Assembly: GCF_032062105.1 (NCBI RefSeq)
Contig: NW_026919274.1
Location: 1,054,001 to 1,118,000 of the forward strand
Length of the DNA: 64,000 nt
Origin: Saccostrea cucullata
Lineage: Eukaryota
Direction: 5' to 3'
In this document: positions 2,258 through 49,475 of the stretch, in pieces
How positions within the stretch are numbered: the first letter of the stretch is position 1
Layout: each line of letters opens with the position of its first letter
Translations under genes and position numbers: made by a program
The notes under the pieces: generated by a model
Databases searched by the model: none
What the model saw: only the letters and a program-made list of their open reading frames with translations
Told to the model about the DNA's origin: nothing

Positions 2258-3950
2258 CTCTTAGAGCATATTTTTATCGTTGTAAAAGTAATGACAGTGG
2301 TTGTCACTATACCAGCAAGAATCGCCAATACTATTCAAAAAATTAAAAAATAAATATTTATTTAAGCCGACTTTAAGTATACAACATATAACCCTTTATG
2401 TCTTTAATGAAGTTCTGCAACCGTTGATATTTTAAATTACTTAAAATATTCTATTTAAAATTTCTATCTGTTTTAATTGATGATTTAAACTTAAGAAACA
2501 ATGTAAGAAACAATTTTAGAAGAAACGTATTACCAAAATATTTGTTCTCTTTCAAAAAGTCAATAACGGTATCCTCTGAAATATAACCAAAATAAATTGA
2601 ATGTGTAATAAACACTTACGTATTTTCCTTAAGCATATACATCAGATCAAATAATTATGAATAAACTACAGCTTTTTTTAATAACTTAATATTGATGCAA
2701 ATAATAATAACATTGGCTTGAACACGTTTCCTTACGTACATAAATGTAAAATAAATATTCCTGTACTTATGCTTTCATTAATTTTCAGTATGTCTACTCT
2801 TATGTACATTAAATCCTAGGTGGACCTTAGTCATCTTTGGATATTGTTAGTAAGGCCATTCCAAGTTTTTTCTCTGTTTAGCGTCCACTCATCTTTCAAA
2901 AACCTACCTACCTATTCGCAAAAAAACACACAAGCCAAAACATAAAACACAGGCTTAAAAGTCATAAAAATGACGCCCTTCAAATGATTTGATCTAACTA
3001 AACTGCTTTAATAGAAGAAATTTCTATTCTTAAGCAAAAACAAGGGATTAAATACTTAAAATACACCTAATATATCTTACTGTACAGAATTATTTGGAGA
3101 AATTGACAAAATAAAAAAAATTTCGACTAAATTAATGAATTTCAGATTTTGTGTGTTTTTTCTAATATAGGGTGTCAAAAACCAAGGCGCACGCGGACGC
3201 TAAGCATAGAAAAAACTTGGATTGGCCTAACGTACTTTTCTAGACAAGTACATATACCTTCTATTATGCTTTCTGTTGATTGTGAATACTTCTGTGTTGT
3301 AGGATTGAGGTCTTTTCTACGATTGGCTTTACCCAACACAAAAACTATTCAGAAAAAAATAACTATTTATACTAGTAGTTAAGACTATGTTCAGAACACG
3401 AAAAACCAATATGAGATACGAATTTTGATTTTAAATGAATACTTTATTAAGTGAATATTGGTCGTTTTTATCTTACCATTCCAGCTAAGCTTGAATGTGA
3501 CATTGTAAGCAGACACTTGGACTTGATTATGACGTGTTTTCACGTGGTCACGTGTTATTGAGGAGCAGTAATTCTTAAGGGTTGTCCTTTGTTCAGTATG
3601 TATTTCTTTTAGCTATAAACATATGAAAATAAAGCTGAACGATAATCAAAATAACTACTGAATTATTCACTAGAAGTGACAAAACGCATGCACGCTAATA
3701 AGCAAGTGAGCAATCAAACCAAAAAAAAAAAAAAAGCAAATAAACACTGAGCAACAATTAATAAAATTTACCATGAGATAACTAGAACAGGTCTTAGAGT
3801 GCACAGAAACTCTTAGTGCTGTAACACGGAACCAGATGCCACGGTTTTCTGGTGCTTGGATTGTCCACGTACAAGTGTTCTCTTCCAATTCTCTCATTGC
3901 TATAATTCTCTTCTTGTAATCTATCTCCTTCTCACATGATGGCTTACACT
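2258..3950 (-). CDS. Gene A (partial): CUB-like domain single-pass membrane protein
   Basis: Phase-compatible GT-AG exons 3772-3950 (CKPSCEK..NTCTWTIQAPENRGIWFRVTALRV..CSSYLM), 3477-3612 (LKEIH..YCSS..VQVSAYNVTFKLSWN), 3258-3344, 2534-2575, and TM exon 2258-2330 (VLAILAGIVTTTVITFTTIKICSKR). CxWxIxAP and YC are CUB hallmarks. First and last exons were not located. Confidence 0.75.
2854..3227. mobile_element. PIF/Harbinger-type MITE in gene A intron
   Basis: ~35-bp imperfect TIRs (ggccattccaagtttttt..tttagcgtcc / ggacgctaagcatagaaaaaacttggattggcc) flanked by TAA on both sides. Confidence 0.65.
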
Positions 3951-4752
3951 CTGTGAAATTAATACAAGTTTAAGATGTTGAAAAATACAAAATTAGAAAT
4001 GTTTTGTCTAAAGAAAAATGTGAAGTCAGGGCAGTTTTATTATCTTAAAAGTCGCAAAAATGCCAAGAAAGATTGTTGGAGAATTAACTTTTTTACCCTC
4101 ATAAGAATGACCCATTTTCGTTTTTAATGGTGTTGTCTCGATCGTCTTTGTTATTCTCATTTCGAAATTTCAAATCATTAAGATTTTTTAAATTTCTTTT
4201 TAGCATTTGTATACTGTCCTATATGAAAGCAAACTGACAAAATCTGTGGTATCATTTATTTCGATTTAGTATCGAGAAAACATTTGAAATGAAAAAAAGA
4301 ATGTATTTTAATACACAGAATAGATAAATTATAGGTCTAAAGGTCGAGTTGACTGCTATTCAGAAACAATTTGTTGTAACCTTCATTGATATTTCCTACC
4401 CATTTTTTTAATGCTATGTAAAATACTCGAGGAAGGAATTTATAAATTGTTAAAGATTAAGATTTGCAATTATGAATGATTTTATACAAGGAATGAAGCG
4501 ATTTATAAAAAAAAGCGTAAACTGTCACAAGGTTTGTTATATCGTATAACATACGATAAACTTCATTCCGTGTAATTTAATTTCAGTGTAGACAATGAGA
4601 CAATTTTTCCTCCGGAAAAATGCCTAAAATTTAGCATATTTTAAAAGTAACGTCAAGCGGAGTAATACTTTCTTGACGTGGGCAAGTTATGTTATACAAA
4701 ATGGATTAAATCTTTAACCCAATCAAATGACGTGTTACAATGAAGAAATAAG

Positions 4753-9809: not shown

Positions 9810-11304
9810 AGGTACTTGAACACAGATTTGAACTTAATTTTTTCTGTATAATATCACGAATTGTATATTTAAATAGCATTTCACACAAAAATTAATTAAA
9901 AATCTTATTGCATTTAAAGGTACTTGGACACAGATTTGAAGTTACCATTTTCTCTATAATATTACGACTTATATATTTTAATAGCATTTCACACAAAAAT
10001 TAATAAAAAATCTTATTTCGTTTAAAAGACATTGAAATTTCAAATTTTTCGGCGGGTTTGATTGACATATCCTTGAACTCTCACAAATTTAATTTTATTC
10101 TTAATCCTTAGGAAAAGTGGCAATCTCGTTTTGTATAAATGAAAAATATTAATACTATAATCCAGAAAATTCAGAGTAGGCACTTTCGAAAGCAAAACAA
10201 ACACACAATATATTGTCAGTCCGTGCAGTTGTGGTAAGCAGACTGTGACGATAGAACGCGCCCGGTGAATTGTAAACATAAACAATAACAGAACTCGAGC
10301 CCTGTTTACAAAAACTGTGTACATAACACGAGTGTGCTCGATTTGCTAAACTCTGTACGCATCTCTTAGTTCGGAATGACGAAACTTGTGAAGGTGTTTT
10401 GCTTTCTAACATTTCTACTCTGAATAAAATTATTTTTCTTGGTAAAAGTTTTGATATTTCTCATTAAAACACATCAAAATTGACACTTTTCCTAAGGATT
10501 AAGAATAAAGTTAAAATTTGTGAAAGTGCAAGGATGTGTCAATCAAACCCGCCAAAAAATTTAAAGTTTTAATAACTATTAAATGAAATAAGATTTTTAA
10601 TTAATTTTTGTGTGAAATGCTATTAAAATATATAATTCGTGATATTATACAGAAAAAATGAGAAAATATTAACTTCAAATCTGTGTCCAAGTACCTTTAA
10701 AAGTTATTAAAACTTTTAATTTTTGGCGGGTTTGATTGACACATCCTTTCACTTTCACAAATTTTAACTTTATTCTTAATCCTTAGGAAAAGTGGCAATC
10801 TTGTTGTGTATTAATGAGAAACATTAAAACTTAAATCCAGAAAAATAATTTTATTCAGAGTAGAAATGTTATAAAGCAAAACCCCTTCACAAGTATCGTC
10901 ATTCCGTTGTGTACAGAGTTTAGCAAATCGAGCACACTCGTGTTATGTACACAGTATTTTGTACACAGGGCGAAAGCTTTGTTATTGTTTGGTGTTTTGG
11001 TTCACCGGGTGCGTTCAACGGCCAAAGTCTGCTCACCACAACTGCACGGACTGACAATATATTGTGTGTTTGTTTTGCTTTCGAACATGTCTACACTGAA
11101 TTTTCTGGATTATAGTATTAATATTTTTCATTAATACACAACAAGACTGCCACTTGTCAATCAAACCCGCCAAAAAAATTAAAATTTTAATAACTTTTAT
11201 ATGAAATAAGATTTTTAATTAATTTTTGTGTGAAATGCTATTAAAATATATAAGTGGTAAAATTACAGAAAAAATATTAACTTCAAATCTGTGTCCAAGT
11301 ACCT
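9810..11304. mobile_element. Two copies of one TTAA-targeting (Kolobok-like) long-TIR MITE, one nested in the other
   Basis: Termini aggtacttg(g/a)acacagatttgaa / ttcaaatctgtgtccaagtacct. Outer copy 9810-11304 (TTAA 9806-9809 and 11305-11308); inner copy 9918-10696 (TTAA 9914-9917 and 10697-10700). Confidence 0.8.
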
Positions 11305-11490
11305 TTAATAAGAGAACGAGAACATCAGCATGAAATAATACACATACTTTTTATTCAGTTTAATATGATGCAGGCATATATCGAATTATTTTGAGAAAAA
11401 ATTCTCTTGACAATAAAAATTTTTTTACTTAAAACATAACCTTGTTCAGGGTATTAACATGAAATAAGTTTTTGTTTGTCTGTTGTTTAA

Positions 11491-13061: not shown

Positions 13062-16000
13062 TCATTTAGTTTGGTTTTTGTGTCCCATCCTCGATAAAAC
13101 GTTTGATACATCATCAGAATGAATAAGAAATAATGTACTGAGTGTTTCTATTTTACTGTTGGAAGTTTTTTCTGGACATGCATCCATCGACTGTTTAACG
13201 GAGTTCGTAGCTCTCTTATAACAAGCGTCCCCTGCTGCCTTTTCCTTGTGTATCTGTACCTCTGAGACCTTTGAAGGACATTGATTTGATGACCTCCCTG
13301 TAGATGGGCGAATCTGTTTTATATCAATTATAGAATGCTTGTTGTTTGTGTCTGAAAGTCCCTTTGATTCTCTATTTTGTGAAGATTCTGTGTTAAGGAT
13401 TGTTTTCTCATCCATAGTGCCATCCTTGGTCACTCCTTCTTTAAACAGATTTATCCTGTTCGATAATAACCCGTCCTTCACTATGATTTTTGTCTTCCGT
13501 GGATGGCGTTTGCGTTGTTCACTTTGGAGTGAGTTTGATGTTTTTTGATTACGAAAACCTTTCGTGGTGGACAAATTTGGTTGCATCAGTTTAGATAAAT
13601 GTGGTCTATGCTGTCTTCTCTTATTTCTCATCGACTGAATGCCAAATCGGTTGTTCCAATTCCGCTGAAACCAATCAGGTATGTACTTGAATGATATTCT
13701 GATTGGCTGAGCTCTATGTCTTCGTAGATACTCTGATCGCCCATATCTTATATACTCCAGACGGAATTTGTTCTGCCTGTAAAAGAAAATTCTTGGTCTG
13801 TTTAAAAGATATGAAAGAGAGATCAAAAAGTTTGTTTGGTTGAGGAATAGACTTTCCACCAAAAACTCTTCGGAAGAAGATACAAGGTTGACATACGATG
13901 TACATTATAAACTCTTTATTTTTATATACATTATAAACTCTTTATTTTTTGAAAGATTTAATTTTTTCCATAAAATTATTCGAACATATGTTTAAACTTA
14001 AGAAAATTTTTTATTAAGAATTAATTTTTACTACAGCTAGGACACTAGTGTAAATTAAGTATGTGTGCATCGAGCAAATCAAGTCATTTCTTCTGTTGTT
14101 ATTTCGTTTAGAAACGTTTCTCAATCCCCAAATGGTCGCTATGGTGAACAATTTTTTTTAAAGTTTACTGCACATGTAAAATTTTAGATTTACAAAGAAA
14201 TTTTAGACTTCTTGCACCTTATACCCGAAGATTGTCATTTAAATCAAATAAAAAAAGTGAGCACGTCTACACCTTTTTTTTAAATAGAGACAATTGTGAT
14301 TGGTAAGGGTTGATAGTATGTAATTTAGATAAACAATGTATATAGGGAATAAAAATATGATTTTGGTAAATATCTTTAGAATGAAATATCAACAGATGGC
14401 TGTTCAAGTCATTTACATGGAAATACGTACCTTTTCTTCCACTTCCTGTAGAATATACACACACATATAATGTTGAAAAACAGCAACATAAATATCCCGC
14501 AGAGGACCACAACGCCAACATCTGTCAAACAGTAAGGTCAAAATAGACTTTTAAAGATAGGGAAGATAAAAATAGACTGCCAAAGTGAAGAAGATAGATA
14601 GAATACATAATAAGTTAAATAGACTATAAAATCAGAAAAGTACAGATAGATTTTATAGTAAGGTCAAAAAAATAGGCAACAAACTAAGGAAGGTAAAACT
14701 ATTCTGCAAAATAAGGAAGGTACAGGTAGGCTTCAAAATAAGGAAGGTACAGATAGGAAACAAAATAAGGAAGGTACAGATAAGGGCTACATTTAAGAAA
14801 GATACAAATAGGCTATGAGATAAGGAAGGCACAGCTAAGCTACATTAAAAGAAAGGTACAGATAGCCTACACAATAAGAAGGATACAGATAGGCTATAAA
14901 ATAAGGAATGTACAGATATGCTACATTATAAGAAAGGCACAGATAGCCTACATTATAAGAAGGATACAGATAGGTTATAAAATAAGGAATGTACAGATAG
15001 TCTACATTAAAAGAAAGGTACAGATAGCCTACACAATAAAAAGGATACAGATAGGTTATAAACTAAGGAATGTACAGATAGCCTACATTATAAGAAAGGT
15101 AAAGATAGCCTATAGTATAAGAAGGATACAAATAGGCTATGAAATAAGGAAGGCACAGATAAACTTCATTATAAGAAAGGTATAGATAGCCTATAGTATA
15201 AAAAGGATACAGATAGGCTATAAAATAAGGAAGGCACAGATAGACTTCACTATAAGAATGGTACAGATAGCCTACATAATAAGAAGGATACAGATAGGCC
15301 ACAAAATAAGGAATGTACAGATAGGAAACAAAATAAGGAAGGTACAGATACTGGCTACATTTGAAAAGGGTACATATAGGCTATAACATAAGGAAGGCAC
15401 AGTTAGGCTACATTATAAGAAAGGTACAGATAGCCTATATTATAAAAAGGATACAGATAGGCTATAGAATAAGGAAGGCACAATTACTGGCTACATTATA
15501 AGGAGGTTACAGATAGACTAATAATAAGGGAGGTTCAGATAGGCTAATAAGCTGCAGAACAAAATAATGATGTATAAATATGCTATAAAATAAGATAAGG
15601 AACAAATATGCTACAAAAAGGAAGACATTTGCTAGAATAGGGAAGGTACTGATAGGCTATTAAATAAAAAGAATTTATAAACGGACTAGAGACAAAAAAA
15701 TTTTTTTAAAAATAGCTACAAAATAGAAAATGTATGAATAAACTTCCAACTAAAAATACACAAATAGACTATTAAGGAAGGTACACACAGGCTAAAAAAT
15801 AAGGAAGGTACAAAATCGTTAAAATTATACAAATAACCTAGATAATAGAGAAGATCAAAACAGGCTTATAAATATGTCATGCAGTTAGGGTTGAATGCCA
15901 ATATCTATATCTTTCTTGTTGGTTGGTCACATATACTATAAAAAATTATTATATTTAACTTTCTTTGATAAAATCTTCAGCATAAGAAATAAATCTCACC

Positions 16001-16108
16001 CACATCTTGTTCTTCACGATACTCAATTTCTGACTGGCCGGACATTATGATCGTGTTTCTATCTCTCTTTGTGACTAATACCACTTTAAATGTTTGTGAA
16101 GTGGAACA
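13062..16108 (-). CDS. Gene B: single-pass membrane protein, paralogue 1 of the trio (long basic/low-complexity tail)
   Basis: Exons 16000-16108 (in-frame ATG at 16045, MSGQSEIEYREEQDV), TM exon 14431-14521 (DVGVVVLCGIFMLLFFNIICVCIFYRKWKKR) and terminal exon 13062-13776 ending KIETLSTLFLIHSDDVSNVLSRMGHKNQTK*. About 283 aa from ATG 16045; further upstream exons are possible. Confidence 0.75.
14530..15860. repeat. 27-bp minisatellite with 81-bp higher-order structure (gene B intron)
   Basis: Unit ~ataagaaaggtacagatagcctacatt. The gataca variant recurs every 81 bp (14801, 14882, 14963, 15044, 15125, 15206, 15287). Confidence 0.85.
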
Positions 16109-22002: not shown

Positions 22003-22012
22003 TTAAGGAAAA

Positions 22013-22152
22013 ATAACAAGTTTATAAACTTCAGTGGGAATTGAAGTGGGTCGGTCACGTGATCAAATCCTGTGAAGGCAGAAGGCCTTCTCGGAAGATT
22101 TGATCATATACCGACCCACTTCAATTCCTTTTGAAGTTTATAAACTTGTTAT
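22013..22152. repeat. Long hairpin, probable terminus of a non-autonomous (tentatively Crypton-like) element
   Basis: Arms ataacaagtttataaacttca..gaagtgggtcggt / accgacccacttc..tgaagtttataaacttgttat, with central aggcagaaggcct. Confidence 0.6.
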
Positions 22153-24477
22153 CTATTACTTATATATACATTTGAGACGGACAATTAAACATTAAATTCG
22201 ATATTTTTGGATATAAATATTGCACTAACCGGTCGCCGTAGATTTCCTTCAAGAGTACGCAAGGTGTAAATCGGCTTGAAAATCGGTTATGCATTGAATT
22301 CGTGACAGGCTAAGAATATTGTGACGTTACCTATTTTCGATAGTATCCTAATTTCGATAGGCTTAATGTTTTTAACAATAAATCAGAAAACCTTTCGTAA
22401 TTTTTTGGAACTCTTATCCCAAAATTATCATCAGATGTAAAAAGTGTAATCAAGCCAAAAAATAGAAAATTATGCCATCTAGAGAGGTAAGATTCTATTT
22501 TTCTTTTTATCTATTCAAATCAAGCCCTTCTCTCATAATGCCAAAAAATTTACTCTAAAACCCTATGTTCTAAGCCTGAAAACAACATTTGATGTTTTAA
22601 TGTTATCGTCTGTAAAAAAGCTCTGTGTTATATTGTTGATATTGCTCTTGAATAGACAAACAAAGTATCAGGTCGTGAGTTCTACTTGAAATACTTCCCT
22701 GGCGTATGACATTGTCCGAACAAGGTAAATATAATTTTTTTAGGTTCATAGAAAGCTATTTTTACTCAGTTTTTATCTGTTACAACTTGAAATGTTAACA
22801 AAAATCATTCTAAAGGCACGTTTTATGAATTTGTCATCGAGAATAAAAAATTATTTGCAAAGGTATTTCTGCCCAACCTAAGCTAACCCATCAATTAAAA
22901 AGTGCAAAATATGTTTAGATATTTTTATGCAAAATTACAGTTTGAACAGAGGCAGCACTTTTTGGTGATCATTTTTTAAGTATATTGAAGTGGTGATGAT
23001 TATGTGCTTTATTACCTCCCTGTTGTTTATAGTTTTGTTCAACTTACGTCATATATTTTCATGGTAGACATGTTCTGTGTAGTTTCATTGCCTAAAATTA
23101 TGACAACATTTGCTTATGAATGAAACTAATCTTGTGAATAAGTTGAATTTAAATGCATCCCATTTTTTTATGTTCTGTGTTATGCTACACTAATACAAAG
23201 AAAAGGGTTATAGATAGGAGTTATCCTTCCTAACTCAAATTTATCTTTCCCTTGAGACACACATCGCTGTCTGAGGTAGGCTCTACCTAACACTTGATTT
23301 TATGGAAACTAGAAGGTGTTTAAACAAATTTCATTTAGAATATACTTGTATGAACATAGAATAATGAAAAATGACATTTGACCTTATATTGTATTTTTAT
23401 TTTTAGGAAGAATTGCTACTTGATTGCATTGCTTTGATTTCCGATAGATTTACACATTTATCGTGAGTAGAATTAAATGGAAAAATATAGTTTTAGCCTA
23501 TATCATGAAGATTAATCTTAAGATCTACGATCTTAGGATAAAAGTTAGAGACTGTGCAGCTGACAAAAGTGACGTACAACTTGTAAACAAAGGCTAGTTT
23601 CTATCGGTATATTCTCTATGCACACAGGTTAAATGAAATCGATCGCCAAAAATGTATGAAGTACTAGTTTACGTAGTAAATAAAACAATTATTTCACTTG
23701 CTTTAATATTTTGTTCATTTTTTATGCATGAAAACTATTGAAAAGCAAGTCATTTTATATTTTTAAGTAATGGTAGATATTATTGCGCCGTGTGATTCGG
23801 CCATCTATTGACTTCTGACCTCTGACAAACTTCATACAGAATTGAAGATAATTTCTCTCTGTATGTTTATATAATCATAATGGAAAGATACCACAAATGT
23901 ATATATTTCGCATTAGCTGTCGTGTGAACGCAATTTAATTCGCATTAGTTTACTTCGCATTAATTTGCTGTGAATCAAACTCTCCATGTGAACAGGGCAT
24001 AAGAGTAAGAAGGGTTAATTCCTTTTTCTGACAATTATTTCTAAAATTACAGCCGATACTTTATAGATATTACGAATTCCAGATACTAGTATCATACACT
24101 ATACATTATTGCGTGAGTAAGTTACCTCTTTTCTCAAATTTGCAATAAGAACAAAATTACTCGAGGGCCTGTCTGAAAGGAATACTTTCTGACAAATATC
24201 ATTTACAAGCGTTTAATTTAACGTCATGTTATAACCTGAATATGATAAACATTAAAATGAACAATTTGAATCAAAAGAAGTCAAATGTATTTTGATAACA
24301 GACATATTTGAAAATTCAAATAACAGAAAATGGATTATGAAGCATGTCAAAATTAGAAAGTTTCTTGCACCTCTTGATAAGTAAAAGAAATCTGTTTATG
24401 GTGGACCTTTTCCGATGCATCTGCATTAAGAGTGTTAATACAGATTATTAAGGAAACCACCAAGCCTTGTTCAATTT

Positions 24478-24835: not shown

Positions 24836-27114
24836 TCATGGCTCACTAACAACTTTTACAGTTTTTAATTTTGAAATGGTGCGTAGAACTTCAGGGGTAT
24901 GTGTTTCAAATAACGTCGTCAGAGTTTTGAGATTGTCCCTCTTCTCCTTTCTGAGTGGTGGTACAAAGCTGTCAGAGAAATTGATGTCCGTGTACGTATT
25001 CCTGTCTTTGGATTCAATTGTCATGTAAGTATCAGATCGGCAGGAGGAGGACAGCGACATAGATTCTGTGACGTTAGAGTAGATGTCGTCTGTTGATCTT
25101 CTAGATATATTTTCTGGCATGTTGTTGTTGTACAGGTGTTGATTCGACTTTCTAGACTGCTCCAACACATTGTATGTACGTTTTCTTTCAATGCCACTTT
25201 GTCTGCGACGTATTTTTTGTCTATGTTATAATAAATAAACTTCGTTATCCCTTGATCATCACTTCAAGATTTTATTTATAATACACGTATAATATATTAT
25301 CAACTATGTTATACTTTTCTTTAAAAAAAGTCGGTATGGTCAATTAGGAGAAATTGTCAGTTTTATATTGAAATAAAGGTTTCGATCGCTACACATTTTG
25401 TATATAAAATATTTACTTTAAATAGATAATGTAAAGATATAGTAATACATAAACAATTAATTGAATACTTTTTCTTCCAAGCGCGGTAGAAGAACAATGT
25501 GAAGACAAAATTAGCAATCACCAGCACGGATACACAAAGCGTTGTTATCATTCCAATACCTTTAAGAAAGTAAATAAAGTGATACATGTATTTATTTTCG
25601 CAGGGTCAAATTTTGGAGGTTTTGGAGTTATGGTTCGTGGGGATTTGATTTTTAAATTTGTGGAGGTTTTAAAAGATAACAAATATAACTTCGTGGAGGA
25701 TATATTTTCTAAGGTGTCATTAAAACACAAAATCATGATATTTTAACACCTCAAAAAGTGATTTTACAGTGTACACAGTTTATTTTGATTTTATTCAATT
25801 AGATGGTGTTGTATATATTTGCTAGGTGACTCACCAAATGTAGATGATGATGCAAATTCAACAGTGCCAACATCAAGATGGTTATATCTTCTTTTGTCAT
25901 CATGCGTGTAAAACAGGTTCTCTAAAGAAGTTTGCTCTGAAAAAAAAAATAAATTTCCTAATTATAGTAGTATGATTATTGGCAATTTGCTATACGAATG
26001 ACTCTTTACGATCCTCAGTATCAAATGAAATTTCCGTATCTTTTTATAGATTCTTTGTAATGCTGCAACTTAATGTTTTTATTAAAAGGAAATTAGTAAT
26101 TAATTCCATACATGTTTGTCACAAGTGAATAATACAAATAAATGAGTATACACATACGAATTTTGTCGAGTTGTCTTTAATACTTTCAAGGTCTTATCCA
26201 TTGTTTGAGTATTTCATTGCTGAGATACGTACCAAATACAGCGACTGTGGATGGAGTTTTTGTGGAACCTGTTGTATTTGGTTTTGCTTCCGAAGACTTC
26301 AAATTTTGCTCTCCTATATATGTAGAGTCATTTATTTGAAAACGAAAAACAAGTACAATTTTACGTAATACTTAAATTCATATTTGTTACAAATTAATGG
26401 TTTAAAAAGTAAAAAGGGTCCCTAATAATAATACATGTCTTTTTTCAGAAAAAGCGTGATAACAGTTAAGATTACAAGCTATCTATACGTATGTATATAA
26501 ACAATAATCAAAGTATGTATTAAACATCCACAACGCACAACCAAGGCGATAGACAATACAATTTCAGTATAAATATTATTTGTCATACCGCAGTTATGTA
26601 TTTCACAAGGCTTTCTATCGAAGAGTTTTGCGTCTGTGCAGCTCGTCAAACAGTCCCTTGCTCTGTACAAATCATCCTCATAACAGCAGCTCCATGAAGA
26701 CCAAGGAGAGTATCCATCATCTTTCTCAGCATGCAATCCTAAACGACGATTAAAATATTTATCATTCATTAACCAAATTTTACTATTTATTTAGTGTATG
26801 TTTCAAAAGCCGTTTTAATTTAACAGATTTGTAAAATACGAGGGTGCCAAGTTCGCTAAAATTAAAATCGCTAAAAATTAATAAAATCGCTAAAATTACA
26901 TCTCATCTATTTCTTTTACAAAATTTTACGAGTTGCTCTGTGTATCTTTCAAAATCCGTTTTTAAATGTAATAGTGCCGGAATAAAACTGGAAACAGTAA
27001 TGCTAAATTGTAACCATGAAACTTACCATTCCAGAGCAACATCATTAAAAGCAATGAATGCAAGGTATGGATCTCCGTGTGAAAGAAATCTATATATGTC
27101 CAAAAGACCAGCAT
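24836..27114 (-). CDS. Gene C: type I membrane protein with signal peptide, TSP1-like domain, S/T-rich stalk, TM and tyrosine-motif tail; paralogue 2
   Basis: Six phase-compatible exons: 27027-27114 (MLVFW..SLLLMMLLWN), 26589-26738 (YSPWSSWSCC..YRARDC..C..C..C), 26233-26313, 25835-25936, TM 25469-25559 (GIGMITTLCVSVLVIANFVFTLFFYRAWKKK) and 24836-25220. Total 897 nt = 298 aa plus stop. Confidence 0.85.
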
Positions 27115-31756: not shown

Positions 31757-34700
31757 TCATCGGACACCTGTTTCAATGGCTTTCAATCTGGAAACTGTGC
31801 GATTAACATCATTCGAGTGCAATGAAAATAGTGTCGTTAGGGTTTTCAATCTGTCTCTTTTAATGGCTCTGAGCGGTGGCACACTTTCTTTAGAAATTTC
31901 CGTTTCCTTTGCTTTCGTTACAGATTGGATTGTTGCGTATCTATCGGACTGAAAGCTTATACGTGAATCCCGGACGTCGGAGTAAACATGCCTAGTCATG
32001 CGCTCGAGTGCACTGTATGAATTATTGGTGTTCATTTCAATCGTGCTTTGTCTTCGACGCACTTCCTGTCTGTACAGAAAGAAATAGTTGATTTAATATT
32101 GGCTTTGCCTAAATGCTTATATGTACTGGACAAAAGCAAATAAACGTTGGTTTTAATTATAAATGTCTAACTCCAATGTAGGAAATGCCTACAAAAATTA
32201 CATTTATCTCTCTTCATGTAAAAGTTTTGAAATCATTAAAACTTATTAATATGACAGTAATACCCACACTTAAAAGTGTTTACATCTTCATTTAAGCTAC
32301 TTGAGTAATGAAGAACCATGATATAAATTATCAAATAATCCACATAAAAGTATATTCCTTACAAAAGAACTTTTGGACAATTTGAAATCACAGGATTTTA
32401 CCAAAATCAACAGCTTTTAAAAAAACTTTTTAAACGACTTTTCAACTTAATACACAAACATATGCATTCTCCATGATAAATTAAAGTCCAATTTTTTTGA
32501 TATCATTGACAGCTGCCTTTTCAATAAAAATGAAACTCGTAATTTTACTTACCTTGTCATTGGTCATTTGCATAATTATTTTGTTAAAAACATTCTGATT
32601 GTACATACAATTACTCTGAAGTTGACATAAAAAAAGATGATTGAGTTTCTGATTGACAGTACATGTATCTATGTTGTTTTCGGAGACCAGGTCTGTTGGA
32701 ATTGCCCTGGGTACCAATTGCGCCCCGTTATAAGCAGACCTATTTTTGTATTCATATGAAGCAGAATTTGTTGAAAATCTTATCCATGAAATAGGGGATG
32801 GGGTAAAAGCATTACTATTGCATTTTTTTTTAAAAGGAACAATTTAGCTGTATGTAAGTATTGCTTTACAGTCAGCTTCACCCTCCTCCTCTAAAAATAT
32901 AAATTATAACAATCTTTGTCTGGTGTATATTTCTTCACTTCACCCTCTCTGGCCTACGTTTCACCTTTGGGTAGAGGATGGACAGTCTGGCTCAAACTCA
33001 TGAATAGAGAGTACCATTGAATATAAAAGAGATTTTGAACAATTTCTAGTTCAATGGTCAAGGTAAGAAAACAAACGTCTTTTCATGAGAAAACATTATT
33101 CAGATATCGAGTATTTACTAGTATTCTCTCCCATTGACTTTATATGGCTCAAACGATATCCATAAAGTACCAAAGGCTTGAGGGTGTTCAGAGACAGATA
33201 ATCATAGATATTGATGTCAAAACACGTTTCTGTGTAAAGTCTTTGTACAAAGCACACTTTGACTCCTTATGGCTCAGTTTGGCTCACATTTCACTCAAAG
33301 AGTATTCCCATGAATAAGGGTCTGACCAGAGTTTTAAATAATTTTTAAGGATGAAAGACCTAAGTCAAAATATTTTCTTTTGTTTTTAAACACTTCTTAG
33401 TCTTGGCGTAACACAAATCAAACCTATTGTCTGACACCTGAAAACCAGTGATCAGTGATTGTCACAGGCTGTGAGTGCCATATGCAGACTGGGCGCGACT
33501 AGTTTCCCGAAATGGGGACCTTTCATTATGTATTATTTAGAGTACGAAATTCCTACTGTATCGGAGATACAGGACTGGACTTGAGGCGAGAGCGACAGCT
33601 CGAACCGCGCCCCGCCCTGTATCTCCGAAACAATAGGAAACGAGTATTCTAAATGACTTGTGACATGACTTTTCTTATGACCTCACTAATTTATATGTGT
33701 ATTTGGGTCATTCTATAGCCAATCAGATGATTTTTCAGAAAGTGAAATTTCGCACCCCATTTTTATCAGTCGCAACTGAAATGCCGAGTAAGGTGGAGGC
33801 GAAGGTATCTATAAATTTAAATAATTTTAAAAATGGGAGGTGATATGCCCCGGTAAATGTATAATGTTTTTTTTCCAGAAAATTAATTTATATTTGACTG
33901 CGTAGGTTTTTTCCTCTGTTCCTCTTGCAAAGGAAAAATGTGTAAAACATTTTGATACATAAGAAACATATGAAAATGAAGCAAAAAAAGGTTTAGGGGA
34001 TTATATTCTGAGAGAAATATCCTACAATACCATCCACCAGTCGTCATATTACAATATTACTGGCTCTAATCTGAAATGCACAGATGAAAAAAGGGAGCAT
34101 ATATTACCTTCGTGTTTGAAAAAAATGTAAGCGTAACCAAGGCAAGTCAAGTGCTGAATAGCCCCCTTTGATTTTTCGTTTTGGCCCTCTTAAATTAGAT
34201 CTATATTTGCCAAACTTGGATATCCTTTATAATTGTTCATAATCAATATATAACGATCACACATAGTGTCAGAGCTGATTATGATTCTACCCCCACAAAA
34301 TACGATTTTCCTTTTTTTGGTCAAAGAAAATCGCGAACTGTGAAATGTGAACTGCTTCACTCCCTCCTTTCTTTTCCCACCATAGGTAATTATACTTTGT
34401 AAAATTATATTCTAAATTTACCTCAATTTTTCATCAAATACATGTAATAACATAATAATAATGTTATGCCTTTTGATTGATTCTCGTGTCTGTCTCATTT
34501 AAGATACGGATACAGCTTTCAGTCATCGCTAAAAATAAAATGTTTTCTATCGAAGTTATTGTACAGTTTCTGCTCATTTGCATGAGAAACGCCCTCGAAA
34601 AAGTGTTCCGTATCGCAGTTATTGTACGGTTGACATCAAAGGAAAACTCGCCGGGTCATGTCACAAATATTTTTGTAAATGTCACCTATTCAAATTTGTA

Positions 34701-37700
34701 ATATCACTAATTCAAATTAAATAGGTGATATCGCCTATTCAAATAGGTGATATCCCTTATTCGAATAAGTGATATCACCCATGAAGTCCGAACAAGTGAT
34801 ATCACCTAATAATTTCCAATGAATGATATCACCAAAAATGGCCTCAAACGTATCCTGGGGGAAAAGGAATCTTATTTTCTTCTAATGAAGAGTAAAGTCC
34901 TCCTTTATGGAGAAAAAATAGAAAAATGAATAGAAATCCTTTGAATGACGTTTTGATTGTTTAACCTTTTGGCATGTGTGTTTTGCAAAAATAATTAAGG
35001 TTAACTTTAAAAGAGAAAAATAATCTTGGAATAGTCTGTTGTGAAAGCTTCATAACACAGTGTACTTTTAGTAACCATGACCCAGTGGGCTAGAGTATTG
35101 CCACAAGAGCAAACAAAGTTTTACATACGAACGTGTATGAATCTTCTCAAGAACCACTGGGAAAAAGCAGTGGAAAATAATTTGGAAGTTTGATACAAAG
35201 TTAAGACGAAAAACCTGTTCTTACAAAATATTGCTCTTCCTACCGTTTTAATGAGATTCTAGTAAGACAGCACAAATAGGCTATACTAGGCTATATATAA
35301 TCCTTTTTATCTGTTTTTGATTTCCTAAAACCGTGTTGCCATAATAGCTGGAAATAGACACAATCAACACTCGTTATCTCGAATTACTTGAGACCAATAA
35401 CAAAAGCTTCGAGATATCCGATGATTAGATATTACCTCAAAATCATATATAGGTTGAGTTTTTAGAACCAGATTATTATTTTTTTCTAAGGGGGGGGAGC
35501 AGTTTTTGACTTTTGCTGTGGCCTTCAACTCGACCTTCAGATATATCGACGACGTATATTGTCAATTAACAATGGTAATTTCCATTCCTACGTCGATACG
35601 ATATATCCAGGAGAGCTTGAGATAAAAGATACCACAGAGTCTGACACATCTGTTTCATACTTGGATATTTTACTTGAAAAAGACGTTAATGGTAACCTAA
35701 CAACCAAGTTATATGATAAACGTGATGACTTTAACTTTTCTATCGTCAACTTCCCTTACTTATGCAGCAATATACCTTCATCACCTGTATACGGAGTGTA
35801 TATATCTCAGTTGATTCGATACGCAAGAGCATGCTCTACGTACGAACAACTTCTAAAACGGGGTAAATTATTGAAAAGCAAGTTCATGAAACAAGAATAT
35901 CAGCAGTCTCTTTTAAAGTCATCATTTCGCAAGTTCTATGGTCGATACAATGACCTTGTCAGCAAATACAATTTATCATTGAGTCAAATGCTGACTGACG
36001 TTTTTCATACCAATTGTTCGTCCATTATTCATACACTGAATTGACGACGGATTTTTCTGTTATTTCACGATCATGACAATGAGCACACGGCGAGTGTGAC
36101 CGGTCAGCAAGGGATGCTCACTCCTCCATGGCACCTGCTCCCACCTCTGATGTTTCGGATGTCCGTGTTTGCTCTGCTCCTATTTTGTATTGTTTTATGG
36201 ACTTTGATATTGAATACTGTTTGTTATCTCCATATCCATCCCAATGGTGAATATGAAAATTCCGAAACCAAATACACACATCTCTTATCCTTTCCCAAAA
36301 ATGAATAAGCTACATTAAAATGTTGGCGGAGTTCTTGGAACCAGAATTTTTTGGTTAAAACAATGAGAAAACATTTTTCGACCCCCATTTGACATCCCCG
36401 GGAAAAAATGATAATTCAGATATCTTTTTTGCTTATGACAAACCAATCAACTTCCAAATAAATAATTATAAGGTTACTGCATAAAATGTTAGAGGAGCTG
36501 GGAACCAACCCTTAGTAGAAAAACATCATTATTGACCCCCTGGATGAAATTAGAAATTCAAATTCTGAAATCTTATTTATATATCCATGACATCACCAAT
36601 CATCTTTCAAAAGATTATTATGTTATTGCGCAAAATGTAGGAGGAGCTCTGGAAACCAGACTTTTGTATTTAAAAAAACTAATTTTTAATATACCCGGTT
36701 TGCCCTCGGTGTGAAAATAAAAATTCGAAAGAAAACTTACTGCACATCTACAAGATGTTTTTTTTATTTTTATTTATTTATTTATTTATATTTTTTGTTA
36801 TTATTTGACCTTTTTATTGTTTGTGTAGGTCGCATCGAAACGTATTGAAGCAATTAAAAAGTAGTAAAAGATTCAATAAAACACAAATCAAAACTGAAAA
36901 TACTGAGTATCAAGAATAAATAATTGTCAAATTTAATGAGAGAAATTTTCGGAATCATGCTCAAAAATATCACTTTATTTCATATGCTAGACTAATTTAC
37001 ATTACGGCACTAAAATAAAAAGGCATGCACTTAATTCAAAAACTCAATATCAGATAAAAGAATGAACTTCAGCTCCTATTTTATACTTTTAACTTTTTTT
37101 AGTCTTAGTTTTCATCTTTCATTTATAGTGCAGAACTTTGGAAAAAAACTTTAAGTACTGAGACTGCATTGTTAAGGTGAATCATAAATGATTGTAAACT
37201 ACAAGTGTTTTGTCCAAATGATTATTTACCTCTGATGTTTTGGAGGTCCGTGTTTGCTATGCTCCTGATTTGAATTATTTGAATGGACTTTTGAGTATGA
37301 ATACTGTATGTTATCTCTAATATATTTCATTTTGGTTACGCTTATTTTCAAGTTATGTGAAATATTTACCTTTTCTTCCAAGCGCGGTAGAAGAAGAAAG
37401 TAAAGATAAGGTTAACCATTACAAGTGCAGACAGACATATAGTTGTTATCAACCCGGCACCTGAAAAAAAGTTACAGATATGTGTTATTATATTACATAA
37501 CAGGAACATTTATACAGAATTGTTGTTTATTTCATAAAAATAAATAATCATCCTTATTTTTTTTTTTTTTACATTTTTTATTAGTTATGGTAAGAATAGA
37601 AATGATCAACTTCATACAAAATTTAATTGAAAGAATGAAAAAAATTTCATTACAAGGCTTTGAAGCTCAGTATCTTGATTTTTATAAATTTAAAATACAT

Positions 37701-37808
37701 AAGTAAAATACTTACCAAATTCAGTGGGTACAATAAAGTCTTTGCTACCCATATCACGTTCATTATTTTGTTTAGTTTTATCCTCTGTCTCATTAGACAT
37801 GTTCACAG
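31757..37808 (-). CDS. Gene D: single-pass membrane protein with short ectodomain and tyrosine-motif tail; paralogue 3
   Basis: Exons 37716-37808 (ATG at 37800, MSNETEDK..PTEF), TM 37370-37460 (GAGLITTICLSALVMVNLIFTFFFYRAWKKR) and terminal 31757-32069 (QEVRRRQS..DRLKTLTTLFSLHSNDVNRTVSRLKAIETGVR*). 162 aa from ATG 37800; upstream exons are uncertain. Confidence 0.8.
32330..36240 (+). mobile_element. Penelope-like (Naiad-type) RT fragment split by ~2.7 kb of nested insertions
   Basis: 32698-32790 reads GIALGTNCAPL*ADLFLYSYEAEFVENL. Translation resumes at ~35513 with AVAFNSTFRYIDDVLSINN..YLDI..LYDKRDDFNF..YGVYISQLIRYARAC, ending at 36044 with no C-terminal GIY-YIG. The 3' tail runs 36085-36230. 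Confidence 0.75.
33535..33655. repeat. Long hairpin within the nested insertion
   Basis: atttagagtac..ttcctactgtatcggagatacagg / cctgtatctccgaaacaataggaa..gtattctaaat. Confidence 0.6.
36240..36760. repeat. Degenerate ~160-bp satellite-like units (HINE-type)
   Basis: Motif atgt(a/t)ggaggag..ggaacca recurs at ~36320, 36486 and 36635. Confidence 0.5.
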
Positions 37809-42912: not shown

Positions 42913-45900
42913 CTACCGGGTACCACTGAAAACCATATTTACACAAAGAATCAATAATTATATATATATATTATTAAACCTTGATGCAAAAAATTACTTT
43001 TCCTAAGGACAAGATAGAAATAATTTAGTTTCTAGTTTGCCTTTATCACGTTGTTAAAAAATAAATCTGAGATTGCTGTTAAACCTCATGACAAACTTAG
43101 GAGAGAAGCCGTCATCTTTGTGGGTGTAGGTTTCGAAAGAACACAATACGACTTACTTGTCATCCGTGTAGTCACTGTGAGACCAAACATTCCACTCGTA
43201 CTTTCCATTTATCTTCTCTGGCTCTTTCACTGTAACATACAGAGGATTTAAGGTAAATTTTTTAAATACTTTGAAAAAAAGACGAGAGCTTTCAGTAAAA
43301 TTTCTTTTTTGACCATGTTTGCCCGCTACCTTTCTGTCTTGGTGAAGTTTTCTTTTTGCAGCTGTAAAGAAATTCAAGTATTAAGGGCCAAAATCTAAAA
43401 ATAATGTATACATATGTATATTATGCATTTCAGGAAATGTTACTTACCAAACTCTGGACAACAAACCAGGATGACGAAAACACTTGTACAAGAAGTAAAT
43501 CAACAGAACCACCATTAAAGCTGCCAGAAGTACGGCGGGTATGAACCAGGCCAGGTTCTCTGGGTTGTCAAAGAATCCGCCCTTGGAGTTACTTGATCCT
43601 CCGGAACTAGGTGGCGCAGTCGTAGTGGTGGTGGTAGTGGTTGTTGTAGAAGTGGTGGTAGTCGGGTCTATAGGGGGCAGATTTAATCAATGATGGCATA
43701 TAATAAAATCACCTACATAGATATTGACATGTGATGATTTTCTTTTCTACTTTGAATTAACACTGGGTGAAAGTAAAAAGAATTTCAAAACGATTTTTTA
43801 AACTTCGGAGTTCTATGCATTTTATAATACTTATGCAAAAGAACTATATGCGGTATATTGAATATACATGTATTTGCCCCCACAAAAGTAAAATTTTGAA
43901 AACTTCCTGAAATGTGCTGAATTCAATTAATTGTATGAAAAATATAAATTAACAGAACATATTATAGTTCCAAAGTAGTTTATTCACAATTTTTGTTTTT
44001 ATGACGTCACAAACTAGTCCGATTTTATATCCTTTTTTAGAAAGAGGACAAAATGGACAAAATTTCAACAATTTTAGCTTTAAAATTTATAGAACGCAAG
44101 TTTGTTCAGGAACAATATTTATATATTTCATTGATATTATCATTCTACACATAATATCGAAATATTGAGCATGAACACACATGCGCTCGGTGACATTAAC
44201 TCAGAATATCGACTAAATATGTACATTTTCCCATAGAATTCATAAAAACCTAAAATTTACGTCATGTTTGTGACGTCATATCATACATATGACACCATTA
44301 CTTATGAAAATATTTAGTGCTTTGAAGTCAGCATATACCCCTCTGTTTTAGAACATAATTAAATATTTCTCCATCAAAGTCTGATTTGGGGGGCAAATAT
44401 TAGTTATTACCGAATAAAGTTCTTTACAAAAATCAAATGTATTCTAAGTAAAAAAATAACAGAATTGCATTCTTTTCATAGAAAAATACCTGTGATTACA
44501 ATAGTAACTGGAGCTGTATCTTGTAATCCATTTGCGTTAGCTGCAGATAAAGTTAGGTCATATTTGGTGCCCACAGGTACATTGCACAAATCTTGAGCAA
44601 CGTGAATTGTACCATCATTCCCTACCAAAAACCCCGCCCCTGAAGTGAGAGTAAAGGTCACGTCCTTGTGCTCCTGTTTAATATCCTTGTCAGTGGCAGT
44701 TACTTGGCCTGCCGAGGACCCGACTGATGAGCATTGTGAAACGAAGAAGGAGTAGCTCCCTTTGTCTAGAACAGGTGCGTTATCATTTATCTCATTTATT
44801 GTGATGGAGAGTTGAGTCGATATAGTATGTCCGCCTTTGTCCGTTGCCGTGACTGTGCATGTCACTACTTCCTGTTCCTTCCCAACAGAATCAAGGTCGT
44901 ATTCTACAGACTGGGTTATAGAACCTTTTTAAAATAAAAAATCAAAAGGAATGATTTCAATATTGTTGCTGAATAAAGAACCTCAATGTTTATATATGAA
45001 TAAAATTTTAGCAGTTTCTAACTTTCTACACGAAATTGACAATATGCACCTGTATTTGGATCCATACGAAATTTTCCTTGGTTGGTGCCACAGTCCATGG
45101 TAAAAGTTTGAACATCATTGAAATCAGGATCTATAACTTGCGTACCCGTAAAGGGATTGGTCAACACGTTTCCTGACTGAAGTATATTATTTCATTCAAA
45201 AGTATTTTAAACAAAGTTTTGCAACTCAAGCTACATATACTAGTCTGTAGACACAACCACACTGTAAAAATCTTTAAATGGTTTAATGTTTTTATTCTTA
45301 AATCTTTTTTACGGAGTTATATGACTAAAACATTAAATTGTCTGTAATTACACGGATAAAAAGATCCTAAAGTCTTCTGTAAGAAGATTCATTTCGTCAT
45401 TAATTCTTATAAAGAGCTCTATAAAATAAGATTTACCTTTCCTTCTCCTGTTTCTATGGCATATACCGATTTAACAAACCCTGTCTGTTGTTCATTTACA
45501 TCAGTAACAAGTATCGTCATTGTTTGGGGGATAGAACTCTCCCTGCCGTCGTTTGCAGTTACTGTGACGTCATACGTTAGTTGATTAAGTGTTCGAAGAC
45601 TTTCATAGTCAATATTGTCTTTTACAGAAATCACACCAGCTACAAAATGAATACAATATGTTTTACATATCTCATTGTTATGATGATGGTGGTTAAATGC
45701 ATATATTTATTTTATGAACCAGACACACCTTCATCGCCATGAGTATAAAATGAGATAGAAGTGAGTTTGATCTCTTCCTTATAGAATCAAATTCGCAAAA
45801 AATACTAAGGTAAGTATTTTTTTGGAGGGAAAATATTACGTCACTATTATAGAATATTTTTAGTTGATCATATTGAAATACTTATAAGGTTCTTGTATTT

Positions 45901-48900
45901 CATGAGGAGAATGATATTACATATTTATATCTACTTAAAAAATTTATTTCATATTATATTTTGGTGCAAAAAATAGGACAAATAATATCTATATAAATCA
46001 AAATAATTTTTCCAATTTTTTCCAAGTTCTGTTGCTGGTAGTATAGATATGACAAAAAGAGAATTGAGAGTCCTGGATACTGGAAATTTAACACATCTTT
46101 AATTGAAAATGAAACTTTCATCAGTGATATGAAAACTTTTCTCAATGAGCTTAAGTTCGATAGAGAAAACCCAACAAAATCTTGGGAAGACTCAAAGAGA
46201 AATGTAAAGGACTTCTGTATAATCTTCTCCAAGAATCTATCAAAATCTTACAAAAGTAAAATAAACTTTATTCAAGAAGAATTAAATAAAATAGAAGACC
46301 TGCCCTACGAAAAAATTGATATGAATAGAAAAAGAAAATTGGAAAACCAATGAACAGAATTTATTAACAAAAAAGCAAAAGGTGCTCAAGTTAGATCACG
46401 GGCAAACTGGATTGAAAATGGAGAGAAAAACACTTCATATTTCTTAACCTTAGAAAAGAAAAGACAGATATCAAATATAATAAAATCTTTAAATACTGAA
46501 CACGGTACTGTTTTTGATGAAGATGAAATATTGCAATCAACATGTAATTTTTTTGAAAAATTATACACTTCAGAAAATGTAACTGATAATAAGATAGAGG
46601 AATATCTCAATGATTTACAATTAGAATATACTATAAATGATAAGGAAAGAATAGAATTAGATGAATTTCCTTCAATATCCGATTGTAAAGAAGCAGTGTT
46701 TAAAATGAAGAAAAATAAATCCCCAGGACTTGATGGACTACCTTGTGAATTTTATCAAACATTCTGGGAAAATATTTAAGATTTCTATTATCTGACTCTC
46801 AAGGAGATTTTTGTAAAATACCAAATGGCATATACACAAAGGTTATCTTTAATAACTCTTTTATTTAAAAAAGGTGACTCTAAAAATCTGACAAATTATA
46901 GACCTATTAGTCTAACAAATACTGATTATAAAATTATAGCCTTTATCTTAGCTAACAAACTACAAAAAATACTGAATAATGCAATACATATAAATCAATC
47001 AGCATATATAAAAGGGCGCAATATAGCCTTAAATGCAAGATTAATTGTTGATATTTTTGAATACTGTGAAGAAAATAACTTGGATTCAGTATTGTTATTC
47101 CTTGATTTCCAAAAGGCTTTTGACTCTGTAGAATGGAATTTTATGTTGAAAGTTCTTAAAAAAATAATTTTGGAGAAAATTTCTTGAAATGGATCACCAT
47201 TTTATATGATAAGCCTATATTTAGAATAAAAAATAATGGGTGGATATCTAAAACATGTGATATGCACAGAGGTATAAGACAAGGATGTCCTATTTCTGCT
47301 ATTTTATTCCTATTTGTAGTAGAAGTATTAGCCATTGCTATTAGATCAAATCCTAACATAAAGGGTTTTCAAAAACCTGGAATGACTGATATTATAAAGA
47401 TAATACAACATGCAGATGACTAGACACTTCCTTTAAAAGATAAGAAGTCCCTTAAACATTCTTTAGAGGTTATAGAAAAATTCAGTAAAGTATCTGGTTT
47501 GAAACTAAACATGTCTAAAACAGAATGTCTCTTAACAGGTCAATTGAAAAATTTGTATCGACAAATAGAAAATGTTGAAGTTAATAATTCCTGTATAAAA
47601 GCTCTAGGGATATTCATAGGACATGATAAGGAAATATATTACAATAAAAACTGGACAAAAATTGTAGACGACCTAGAAAAACTTTTTGAGTCTTGGAAAA
47701 AAGAAAATTAACAATTCTGGGCAAAGTCTGTGTAATTAATAGTCTAGCAATATCAAAAATTATATATATTGGGTCAATTTTAAACTTTTCCAAAGGAAAA
47801 TACAGTTAAGAAAATACAAAGTCTAATTTTTAATTTTATATGGAATAAAAAAGACAGAATAAAGCGAAACACTCAGATTGGAAGTGTTCAAGAAGGAGGA
47901 ATAGGTATTGTTGATGTACTTTTAAAACTAAAATCCATAAAAGTATCATGGATTAAAAACATACTAAGTAAAACAAACTCCTTATTCCTATTTATTGATA
48001 GTTTGTGTAAAGAGAGAAATTTTGATTTTGAATATCTATGTAAAACAAACGTTATTGATACAAAAGACTATCAAATTATGGAAAACTTTCCCTTGTTTTA
48101 CAAAGAAATGCTAGTATTTTTTGATGAATGTAAAAGAAACAAAAGAGAACTGAATTTGAATGCTTTATTAAAGGAACCACTGTGGTGTAATAATAAAATG
48201 AAGCATAAAAACAAGCCAATATTTTTTTCAAATTGGCTGAAAAGCGGATTTAAATATATTGGTGATATTGTAGACAAAAATGGTATGCAACCCATAGAAT
48301 GGTTTTATGATAAACTTGTATGTAAGAGAAATTGGATTTGTGAATATATGATAATGAAAAATGTGGTTTTGAAAGCTTTTGTAGAATATGAATTTACAAA
48401 TATACAGTATGAAAATATCAAATATGAAATTAATTCATATGATTTATTATACCATCATCAAGTAGCAGTGTTTGATATTACTTCAAAATTGATTTATAAA
48501 ATTCTGTGTCTTGATAAATTTAAACCTCCCTTACATCAGTATTATTATGGAAAATTGTTTGAAATTCCAAAAACTGCTTGGAAATCTATATATGAACAAA
48601 AAATATTAGCAATTGCAGATAGAGGCATATCAGACTTCAATTACAGATTATTAAATAACTTATTATGTAATAGAGAAATGTTGAAGAAATGGAAAATTGT
48701 TGAAAATGAAATGTGTGTTTTTTGTAAAGATGTAAAAGAAAACAATGAACATCTTATTCTAAAATGTCAAAATGTTTCTCATATATGGGATGTTGTTCAG
48801 CAAGTTTTGAAATTTGATATAACATGGAAAAATATTGTTATTGGATTTTATTATGAAAAAAATGAAAAGATATTATTTTTGAATAGCATAATATCCCTGA

Positions 48901-49439
48901 TTGCTTGTAAAATTTACAAATACAAAATGTACTGTAGACTTGAAAACAAAGAAGAAAAGCCTCAAGAAATATGTTATCATATGAAGAGTATATTGAATAT
49001 TTTTACTGAAGTATATAATAAAATTAACCATATGAAATATTATAATGTTATAAAATGTATTAAAGAGAAACTATAATTTATAAACCCATTGTAGAATAAG
49101 CCTGTAGTTCTACGATCTTATCTGGGAGACAATAAATAGACTGTGTTTGAGCTGGAGGTGAGGTCTCCCAGATATATAAGGGTACCTATATACAAGTATA
49201 CATATGATAATCAGCTGTATTTTTTATGACTTTTTTTTCATTAAATTTTGGGATAAAACCTTTACAATCATACATAAGATAATCAGCTGTATTTGTTAAT
49301 GACTTTTCTTCATTTTGATATTTTGTGATAAATTATTCCACATGATTTTACATGACAAATAGAAAGAATGAAATTGTTCAAGTTATAAAATCAAATGCAC
49401 TGTAACATGTATATGATGTTTTGTTTTTCTAAATAAAAT

Positions 49440-49475
<36 letters not shown>

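What the first reader, a model, noticed from the sequence alone, without database searches (positions are those of the whole stretch)
24983..25027. Canonical ITAM spacing in the gene C cytoplasmic tail
The tail contains SDT-YMTI-ESKDRNT-YTDI, i.e. YxxI-x7-YxxI, matching the ITAM consensus YxxL/I-x6-8-YxxL/I that recruits Syk-family tandem SH2 domains. It also has YNVL and YSNV motifs and a PPLR patch. Function as an ITAM is inference.
Basis: partly seen in the sequence, partly recalled or inferred. Interest (0 to 1): 0.7.

Follow-up and report, generated by a model that had tools for sequence, protein, structure and literature searches.

The report
Oyster membrane adaptors with ITAM-like tails
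The two-tyrosine motif is real and lies in a spliced oyster gene from a small, uncharacterised family of membrane proteins whose inner tails likely dock signalling enzymes such as the kinase Syk, but only the first tyrosine is kept across the family, so the textbook spacing seen here is one variant rather than a fixed feature.

Summary
The motif is confirmed. YMTI-x7-YTDI (Y236/Y247) lies in the last exon of a six-exon, 298-aa single-pass gene from a Saccostrea oyster; RNA from related oysters shows all five introns. Tail shuffles give the pattern 0.6% of the time.

The gene belongs to an uncharacterised family found only in oysters (three tandem members in the window). Members share an invariant transmembrane face (L-x3-N-x3-T-x2-FY-x2-W, 12 of 12 genes), a C-terminal TLTTLF helix, and tails where 44 of 54 tyrosines carry L/I/V at +3 (background 18.5%).

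The first half of the motif is kept in 14 of 14 genes, a full second half in 7 of 14, with spacers of 5-9. Most members have almost no ectodomain and resemble vertebrate transmembrane adaptors. The genome encodes Syk.

Best reading: a phosphotyrosine adaptor or receptor that likely recruits Syk through a core YxxI plus a variable second site. Phosphorylation and binding are untested. ITAM-Syk signalling is already published for oysters; the family is not, in the searches run.

The parts
24983..25027 (-). ITAM-like pair YMTI-x7-YTDI (Y236 = module B, the family core; Y247 = module C, labile)
25070..25081 (-). Module A, YSNV (Y218); YxN and Csk-site-like; 14 residues before module B here, 8-12 in most relatives that have it
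   Evidence: PAG Csk site YSSV in PMC3492796
25163..25174 (-). Upstream module YNVL (Y187)
24866..24931 (-). C-terminal conserved LKTLTTLF..H...V..T...L motif, predicted two short helices; most conserved part of the tail; partner unknown
24836..25220 (-). Gene C exon 6: whole cytoplasmic tail and stop
25469..25559 (-). Gene C exon 5: transmembrane helix; invariant face L153, N157, T161, F164, Y165, W168 (25524-25477)
25835..25936 (-). Gene C exon 4: stalk
26233..26313 (-). Gene C exon 3: Ser/Thr/Pro-rich stalk
26589..26738 (-). Gene C exon 2: Cys/Trp domain, weakly TSP1-like (WxxWxxC, RxR); fold not confirmed
   Evidence: no Pfam hit; low-confidence model
27027..27114 (-). Gene C exon 1: predicted signal peptide
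   Evidence: P0002/P0003; joint in one contig
31757..37800 (-). Paralogue D (exons 37800-37716, 37460-37370, 32069-31757; 162 aa): about 31-aa ectodomain, NxxxT TM, YSAL/YSDV/YATI, no module C
   Evidence: (identical to P0004)
13062..16045 (-). Divergent paralogue B (exons 16045-16000, 14521-14431, 13776-13062; 283 aa): TM Asn and C-terminal motif kept, no YxxL/I pair
   Evidence: (identical to P0005)

Best explanation
Gene C is a spliced single-pass membrane protein of an oyster family whose disordered tail likely works as a phosphotyrosine docking platform that would recruit the tandem-SH2 kinase Syk. Shown: the anatomy, the splicing, the family, the tyrosine pattern, the invariant TM face, and a Syk gene in this genome. 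Inferred steps: (1) the protein assembles with itself, a paralogue or a ligand-binding receptor through the invariant Asn/Thr/Tyr/Trp TM face; (2) clustering lets a Src-family kinase phosphorylate the YxxI/L/V sites; (3) Syk binds the invariant module B plus a second phosphotyrosine, which is module C in this gene (7-aa spacer), module A in Ostrea-type members (8-11-aa spacer), or module B of a partner chain (hemITAM mode); (4) module A can also bind single-SH2 proteins such as Csk or Grb2.
For: 44 of 54 scorable tail tyrosines in 14 genes have L/I/V at +3, against 18.5% background and 2-5 of 54 at offsets +1, +2, +4, +5. Module B is YxxI/L in 14 of 14. A YxxL/I pair spaced 6-12 occurs in 8 of 14 genes (0.14 expected from shuffles), spaced 6-8 in 4 of 14 (0.05 expected). 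Module C, preceded by N-T-like residues, is shared with both Crassostrea/Magallana lineages, so it is likely ancestral. The haplotig allele and 4 of 4 contigs from four studies keep both tyrosines, both +3 Ile and the spacer. The TM face is invariant in 12 of 12 genes, all within about 120 degrees of a helical wheel. An SH2-SH2-kinase gene with best hit SYK (E 3e-17) is in this genome. CgIgR co-precipitates with CgSyk in C. gigas (PMC6994640, passages). The C. gigas member's nearest language-model look-alikes are SCIMP (0.90), LIME1 and GAPT (lead only).
Against: The full motif is present in only 1 of 3 species with the orthologue and module C is complete in only 7 of 14 genes. B-C spacers run 5, 5, 6, 7, 7, 9, 9, and 5 is below the published ranges of 6-9 and 6-12. 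Residue -3 is Ser, not D/E/N (consensus in PMC4536121). The 14 genes are related, so the enrichment is not 54 independent draws: about four homologous sites, 0.185^4 = 0.001. Low variation inside the motif among close relatives is not significant (1 of 45 versus 15 of 173 sites, p = 0.20). The most conserved tail segment is the C-terminal helix, not the tyrosines. The atlas scores are at a level that shuffled proteins reach 4-10 times in 100. There are no phosphorylation, binding or tissue data.
Confidence: 0.5

Rival explanations
1. The tail is a general adaptor scaffold (LAT/PAG/SIT/SCIMP-like) in which each tyrosine independently binds single-SH2 proteins (Csk, Grb2, SHP2, Src). The ITAM spacing is incidental and the net output may be inhibitory.
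For: Spacers vary freely and module C is lost repeatedly. YSNV resembles the PAG Csk site YSSV. YxN occurs in module A of several members, and module B reads as an ITIM-type SxYxxI in four Crassostrea-type members. A Csk-like SH2 exon is in the genome. Atlas look-alikes are TRAPs.
Against: The modules use I/L at +3 and stay 5-14 residues apart, which suits tandem-SH2 binding. No juxtamembrane CxxC in 12 of 12. This rival is not exclusive of the best explanation.
Confidence: 0.3
2. The YxxI/L/V motifs are unphosphorylated sorting signals for clathrin adaptor mu subunits, so the protein is an endocytic or trafficking factor.
For: YxxPhi is also the AP-complex sorting consensus (recalled, no call). 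+3 enrichment alone cannot separate the two readings.
Against: Three to five clustered sites per tail, no F or M among the enriched +3 residues of the conserved modules, and I/V/L enrichment at -1 (17 of 55), which fits tyrosine-kinase substrates (recalled).
Confidence: 0.1
3. In gene C the second half is a decaying relic or a chance match. The gene signals through module B or the C-terminal helix only.
For: +3 is lost in S. echinata and the tyrosine is absent in Ostrea and in paralogue D. Chance of the spacing is 0.13 given three modules.
Against: Intact in the haplotig allele and in four contigs from four studies. Homologous intact module C in six Crassostrea-type genes.
Confidence: 0.1

Closest known systems
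CgIgR of Crassostrea gigas (PMC6994640; passages seen)
   Same: Oyster single-pass protein with a cytoplasmic YxxL/I pair; reported to co-precipitate with CgSyk.
   Different: CgIgR has five Ig domains. Gene C has one small TSP1-like domain and most of its family almost no ectodomain. No sequence comparison with CgIgR was run.
Vertebrate ITAM signalling subunits DAP12, FcR-gamma, CD3 (PMC4536121 and PMC13107469; passages)
   Same: Tiny ectodomain in most members, YxxI-x7-YxxI in this gene, and a polar TM residue with Thr one turn below.
   Different: Asn instead of Asp. D-to-N is reported to compromise assembly with Lys/Arg partners, so the partner chemistry must differ. The motif sits in one exon, whereas the classical ITAM is split over two. 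No profile hit to PDB chains. Analogy, not homology.
Vertebrate transmembrane adaptor proteins LAT, PAG, LIME, SCIMP, GAPT (PMC4861716, passages)
   Same: Short ectodomain, one TM, tail with several tyrosine motifs; nearest language-model look-alikes.
   Different: No Pfam match, no palmitoylation CxxC, a far more conserved TM face and a C-terminal helix. Gene C itself has a signal peptide and a folded ectodomain.
Hydractinia Alr proteins (PMC9546547; passages)
   Same: Tandem cluster of invertebrate single-pass genes with divergent ITAM/ITIM-bearing tails, function of the motifs untested.
   Different: Alr proteins have Ig-like ectodomains. No sign of extreme polymorphism here: the allele tails are 94% identical.
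hemITAM receptors such as CLEC-2 (PMC9736690; passages)
   Same: One YxxL/I per chain, with Syk proposed to bridge two chains; fits members lacking module C.
   Different: Unrelated architecture; dimerisation of the oyster proteins is inferred from TM conservation only.

Membership tests
ITAM (motif) | YxxL/I-x(6-9)-YxxL/I | tested here: met
   x7; consensus from PMC9546547
ITAM (motif) | Located in the cytoplasmic tail of an expressed membrane protein | tested here: met
   71 residues after the TM tyrosine (Y165 to Y236); splice joints in RNA of related oysters
ITAM (motif) | D/E/N at -3 of the first tyrosine | tested here: not met
   Ser at -3, Asp at -2
ITAM (motif) | Both modules and spacing conserved in orthologues | tested here: not met
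   1 of 3 species with the orthologue; 7 of 14 family genes keep a B-C pair, 3 of them at x6-8
ITAM (motif) | Syk-family tandem-SH2 kinase in the organism | tested here: met
   G000:C20884, SH2-SH2-kinase exons, best hit SYK
ITAM (motif) | Dual phosphorylation and Syk binding | not testable with these tools
   needs experiment
Vertebrate ITAM signalling subunits (DAP12/FcR-gamma/CD3) | Acidic TM residue (DxxxT) | tested here: not met
   NxxxT in 12 of 12, no charged TM residue
Vertebrate ITAM signalling subunits (DAP12/FcR-gamma/CD3) | ITAM split by an intron | tested here: not met
   single tail exon
Transmembrane adaptor proteins (TRAPs) | Short ectodomain, one TM, multi-tyrosine tail | tested here: inconclusive
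   met by paralogue D, P0006, P0010, P0011 (about 23-40 aa); not by gene C (about 143 aa)
Transmembrane adaptor proteins (TRAPs) | Juxtamembrane palmitoylation motif (most TRAPs) | tested here: not met
   0 of 12
TSP1 repeat (ectodomain) | Profile match or three-stranded fold | tested here: inconclusive
   no Pfam hit; 7 of 7 weak PDB hits are TSP1-repeat-bearing proteins, E 0.1-5; atlas 0.83; model pLDDT 56, helical

The most novel reading that the evidence does not exclude
Oysters independently evolved dedicated ITAM-type signalling subunits: near-ectodomain-less chains that assemble in the membrane through an Asn-x3-Thr face with each other or with separate ligand-binding receptors, and fire Syk. 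This would be an invertebrate counterpart of DAP12/FcR-gamma/CD3, a division of labour described as characteristic of jawed vertebrates.
Probability: 0.2. Interest if true: 0.8.

Novelty: new variant of a known kind. Interest (0 to 1): 0.45.

Why it matters
ITAM-Syk signalling in oysters is already published for a receptor that carries its own ligand-binding domains. A family of adaptor-like chains with an invariant intramembrane assembly face would show that molluscs may also split sensing from signalling. The natural series of spacers (5-12 residues) and losses of the second tyrosine offers ready-made variants for testing what an invertebrate Syk accepts, which would help sort real from chance ITAM calls in invertebrate genomes.

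Tried and rejected
Pfam scans gave nothing above cut-off for 14 queries. The family profile matched no PDB chain at E<=10. AlphaFold2 models were low confidence outside the TM helix (mean pLDDT 56.5 and 55.6), so no fold search was run. The TM homodimer prediction gave no answer (score 0.03, alignment not used); it is no evidence either way. The run search listed no holder on record as RNA. No further family member was evident in this assembly beyond the window and its haplotig; two weak hits (E 0.5 and 6.7) were not followed (lower bounds). P0015 was dropped as a repeat protein matching only a short basic stretch. P0076 was dropped as an apparent fusion of two tandem genes. PPLR as an SH3 ligand: no PxxP, and not kept outside Saccostrea. 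The trees leave deep branches open, so the number of module C losses (2 changes needed, 1 not excluded) is unsure. The original Draper paper was not held; the consensus came from PMC6219719. Earlier scan notes by place, sequence and long word list returned nothing.

Full report
Observation. The minus strand at 25027..24983 reads YMTIESKDRNTYTDI. From the raw sequence I built a six-exon GT-AG model of 298 aa: signal peptide, a 50-aa Cys/Trp domain, a Ser/Thr stalk, one TM helix and a tail of about 130 aa. Named database records identify the locus as Saccostrea cucullata LOC134283749. That record lacks the first two exons, whereas the haplotig allele (P0002) and the S. echinata orthologue (P0003) have them. 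RNA reads and contigs from related oysters, mostly 80-95% alike, show all five introns, the first in one contig only.

Chance. Shuffling the tail gives a 6-8 spacer match in 0.64% of 100,000 trials. The spacing costs only 0.13 once three YxxL/I modules exist, and the regex hits 20 times in the six frames of this window. The regex alone is therefore not persuasive.

Family. Two relatives lie in tandem in the window: D upstream (162 aa) and the divergent B downstream (283 aa); both models equal the database proteins. A profile search of 1.84 billion representatives returned 16 proteins and a second profile search 13. Every named one is from Saccostrea, Ostrea or Crassostrea/Magallana and is called uncharacterised; several have no name or organism. 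In C. gigas the two members carry consecutive locus numbers, which suggests a tandem pair there too (inference). For counting I kept 14 genes (12 with a TM, 2 partial) and left out the allele, near-duplicates, the two B-type proteins, a fused model and one spurious hit.

What is conserved. First, the TM helix: L-4, N0, T+4, F+7, Y+8 and W+11 are invariant in 12 of 12 and lie on one face, with no charged residue and no CxxC. Second, a C-terminal TLTTLF..HS..V motif, the best-kept part of the tail, predicted as two short helices at modest confidence; its partner is unknown. Third, the tyrosines: 44 of 54 have L/I/V at +3 against 18.5% background, with no such enrichment at +1, +2, +4 or +5. The genes are related, so this amounts to about four independent sites.

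The reported motif in the family. Its first half (module B) is YxxI/L in 14 of 14 genes. Its second half (module C) is complete in 7 of 14, with spacers 5, 5, 6, 7, 7, 9 and 9; it is degenerate in 2 and absent in 5. It usually follows N-T-like residues in both Saccostrea and Crassostrea lineages, so it is likely ancestral, although the tree's deep branches are open. Among the three species with the TSP1-like ectodomain only this one has the full motif: S. echinata reads YTTI-x7-YISS and O. edulis lacks the tyrosine. The Ostrea-type members instead pair the upstream module A with B at 8-11 residues. Within this species group the motif is intact in the allele and in 4 of 4 contigs from four studies, with one M-to-T change at a free position; this is not significantly more conserved than the flanks (p = 0.20).

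Partners available. An SH2 scan of the genome gave 45 matches. One exon's best PDB hit is SYK (E 3e-17), and the locus continues with a second SH2 and kinase exons. Another exon's best hit is CSK, with SHP2 and RasGAP close behind.

Mechanism. The most likely reading is a clustering-dependent phosphotyrosine platform: TM-mediated assembly, Src-family phosphorylation, then Syk docking on module B plus whichever second site is available. All three steps are inferred. The main rival is a general adaptor scaffold for single-SH2 proteins, possibly inhibitory through Csk or SHP2; the two can coexist. Sorting signals and a decaying second half are less likely.

Comparison. By consensus and position this is an ITAM-like motif, but it fails the acidic -3 residue (PMC4536121) and orthologue conservation. 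It is not a member of the DAP12/FcR-gamma/CD3 group: Asn replaces Asp, and D-to-N is reported to compromise assembly there (PMC13107469). The small members work like transmembrane adaptors (PMC4861716; atlas lead). ITAM-Syk signalling is already reported in C. gigas (PMC6994640) and amphioxus (PMC13344425), and ITAM-like tails occur in Hydractinia (PMC9546547). I saw passages of these papers, not whole texts; of PMC10507400 I read the first of six parts and did not use it.

Novelty. A search for six locus identifiers found 0 papers, and topic searches showed no description of this family. Supplementary tables and subscription journals were not searched and could list these loci. The motif is ordinary in kind; the adaptor-like family with its invariant TM face is the more interesting result. 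Interest 0.45.

Noticed in passing
window 3670-3969 and about 2252-2330 (minus); L009:8917-9417 (minus): A downstream gene with a CUB-like exon (by eye) and a TM exon; an ORF just beyond the window start, likely its tail, carries YEMP, YENI and YVNL. It may be another tyrosine-signalling receptor and is a candidate partner.
   Followed up: partly
window 26589-27114: The database model of this locus (P0001) omits the signal-peptide and Cys-domain exons that the allele, the orthologue and RNA joints support; likely a mis-annotation.
   Followed up: yes
window 25923-25936: Two contigs show 13 different letters at the start of exon 4, and the haplotig protein is shorter there: allelic or splice variation in the stalk.
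   Followed up: no
window 43036-57000 (minus): A large gene with cadherin-like repeats, a Thr-rich stalk and a TM segment lies upstream of the cluster (by eye from ORFs).
   Followed up: no
window 45954-49076 (plus): A LINE-type reverse-transcriptase element broken by in-frame stops, absent from the haplotig alignment (gap 46040-50462).
   Followed up: no
window 61787-63760 (plus): Exons of a thioredoxin-fold protein disulfide isomerase-like gene (WCGHC), a useful synteny marker.
   Followed up: no
window 14531-15812: An A/T-skewed tandem repeat array of about 81-base period inside intron 1 of gene B.
   Followed up: no
window 861-1079, 9894-11308, 22004-22162: Long inverted repeats typical of non-autonomous DNA transposons.
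   Followed up: no
G000:C20884 about 61700-67900 (minus): The Syk gene of this genome (SH2-SH2-kinase exons).
   Followed up: partly
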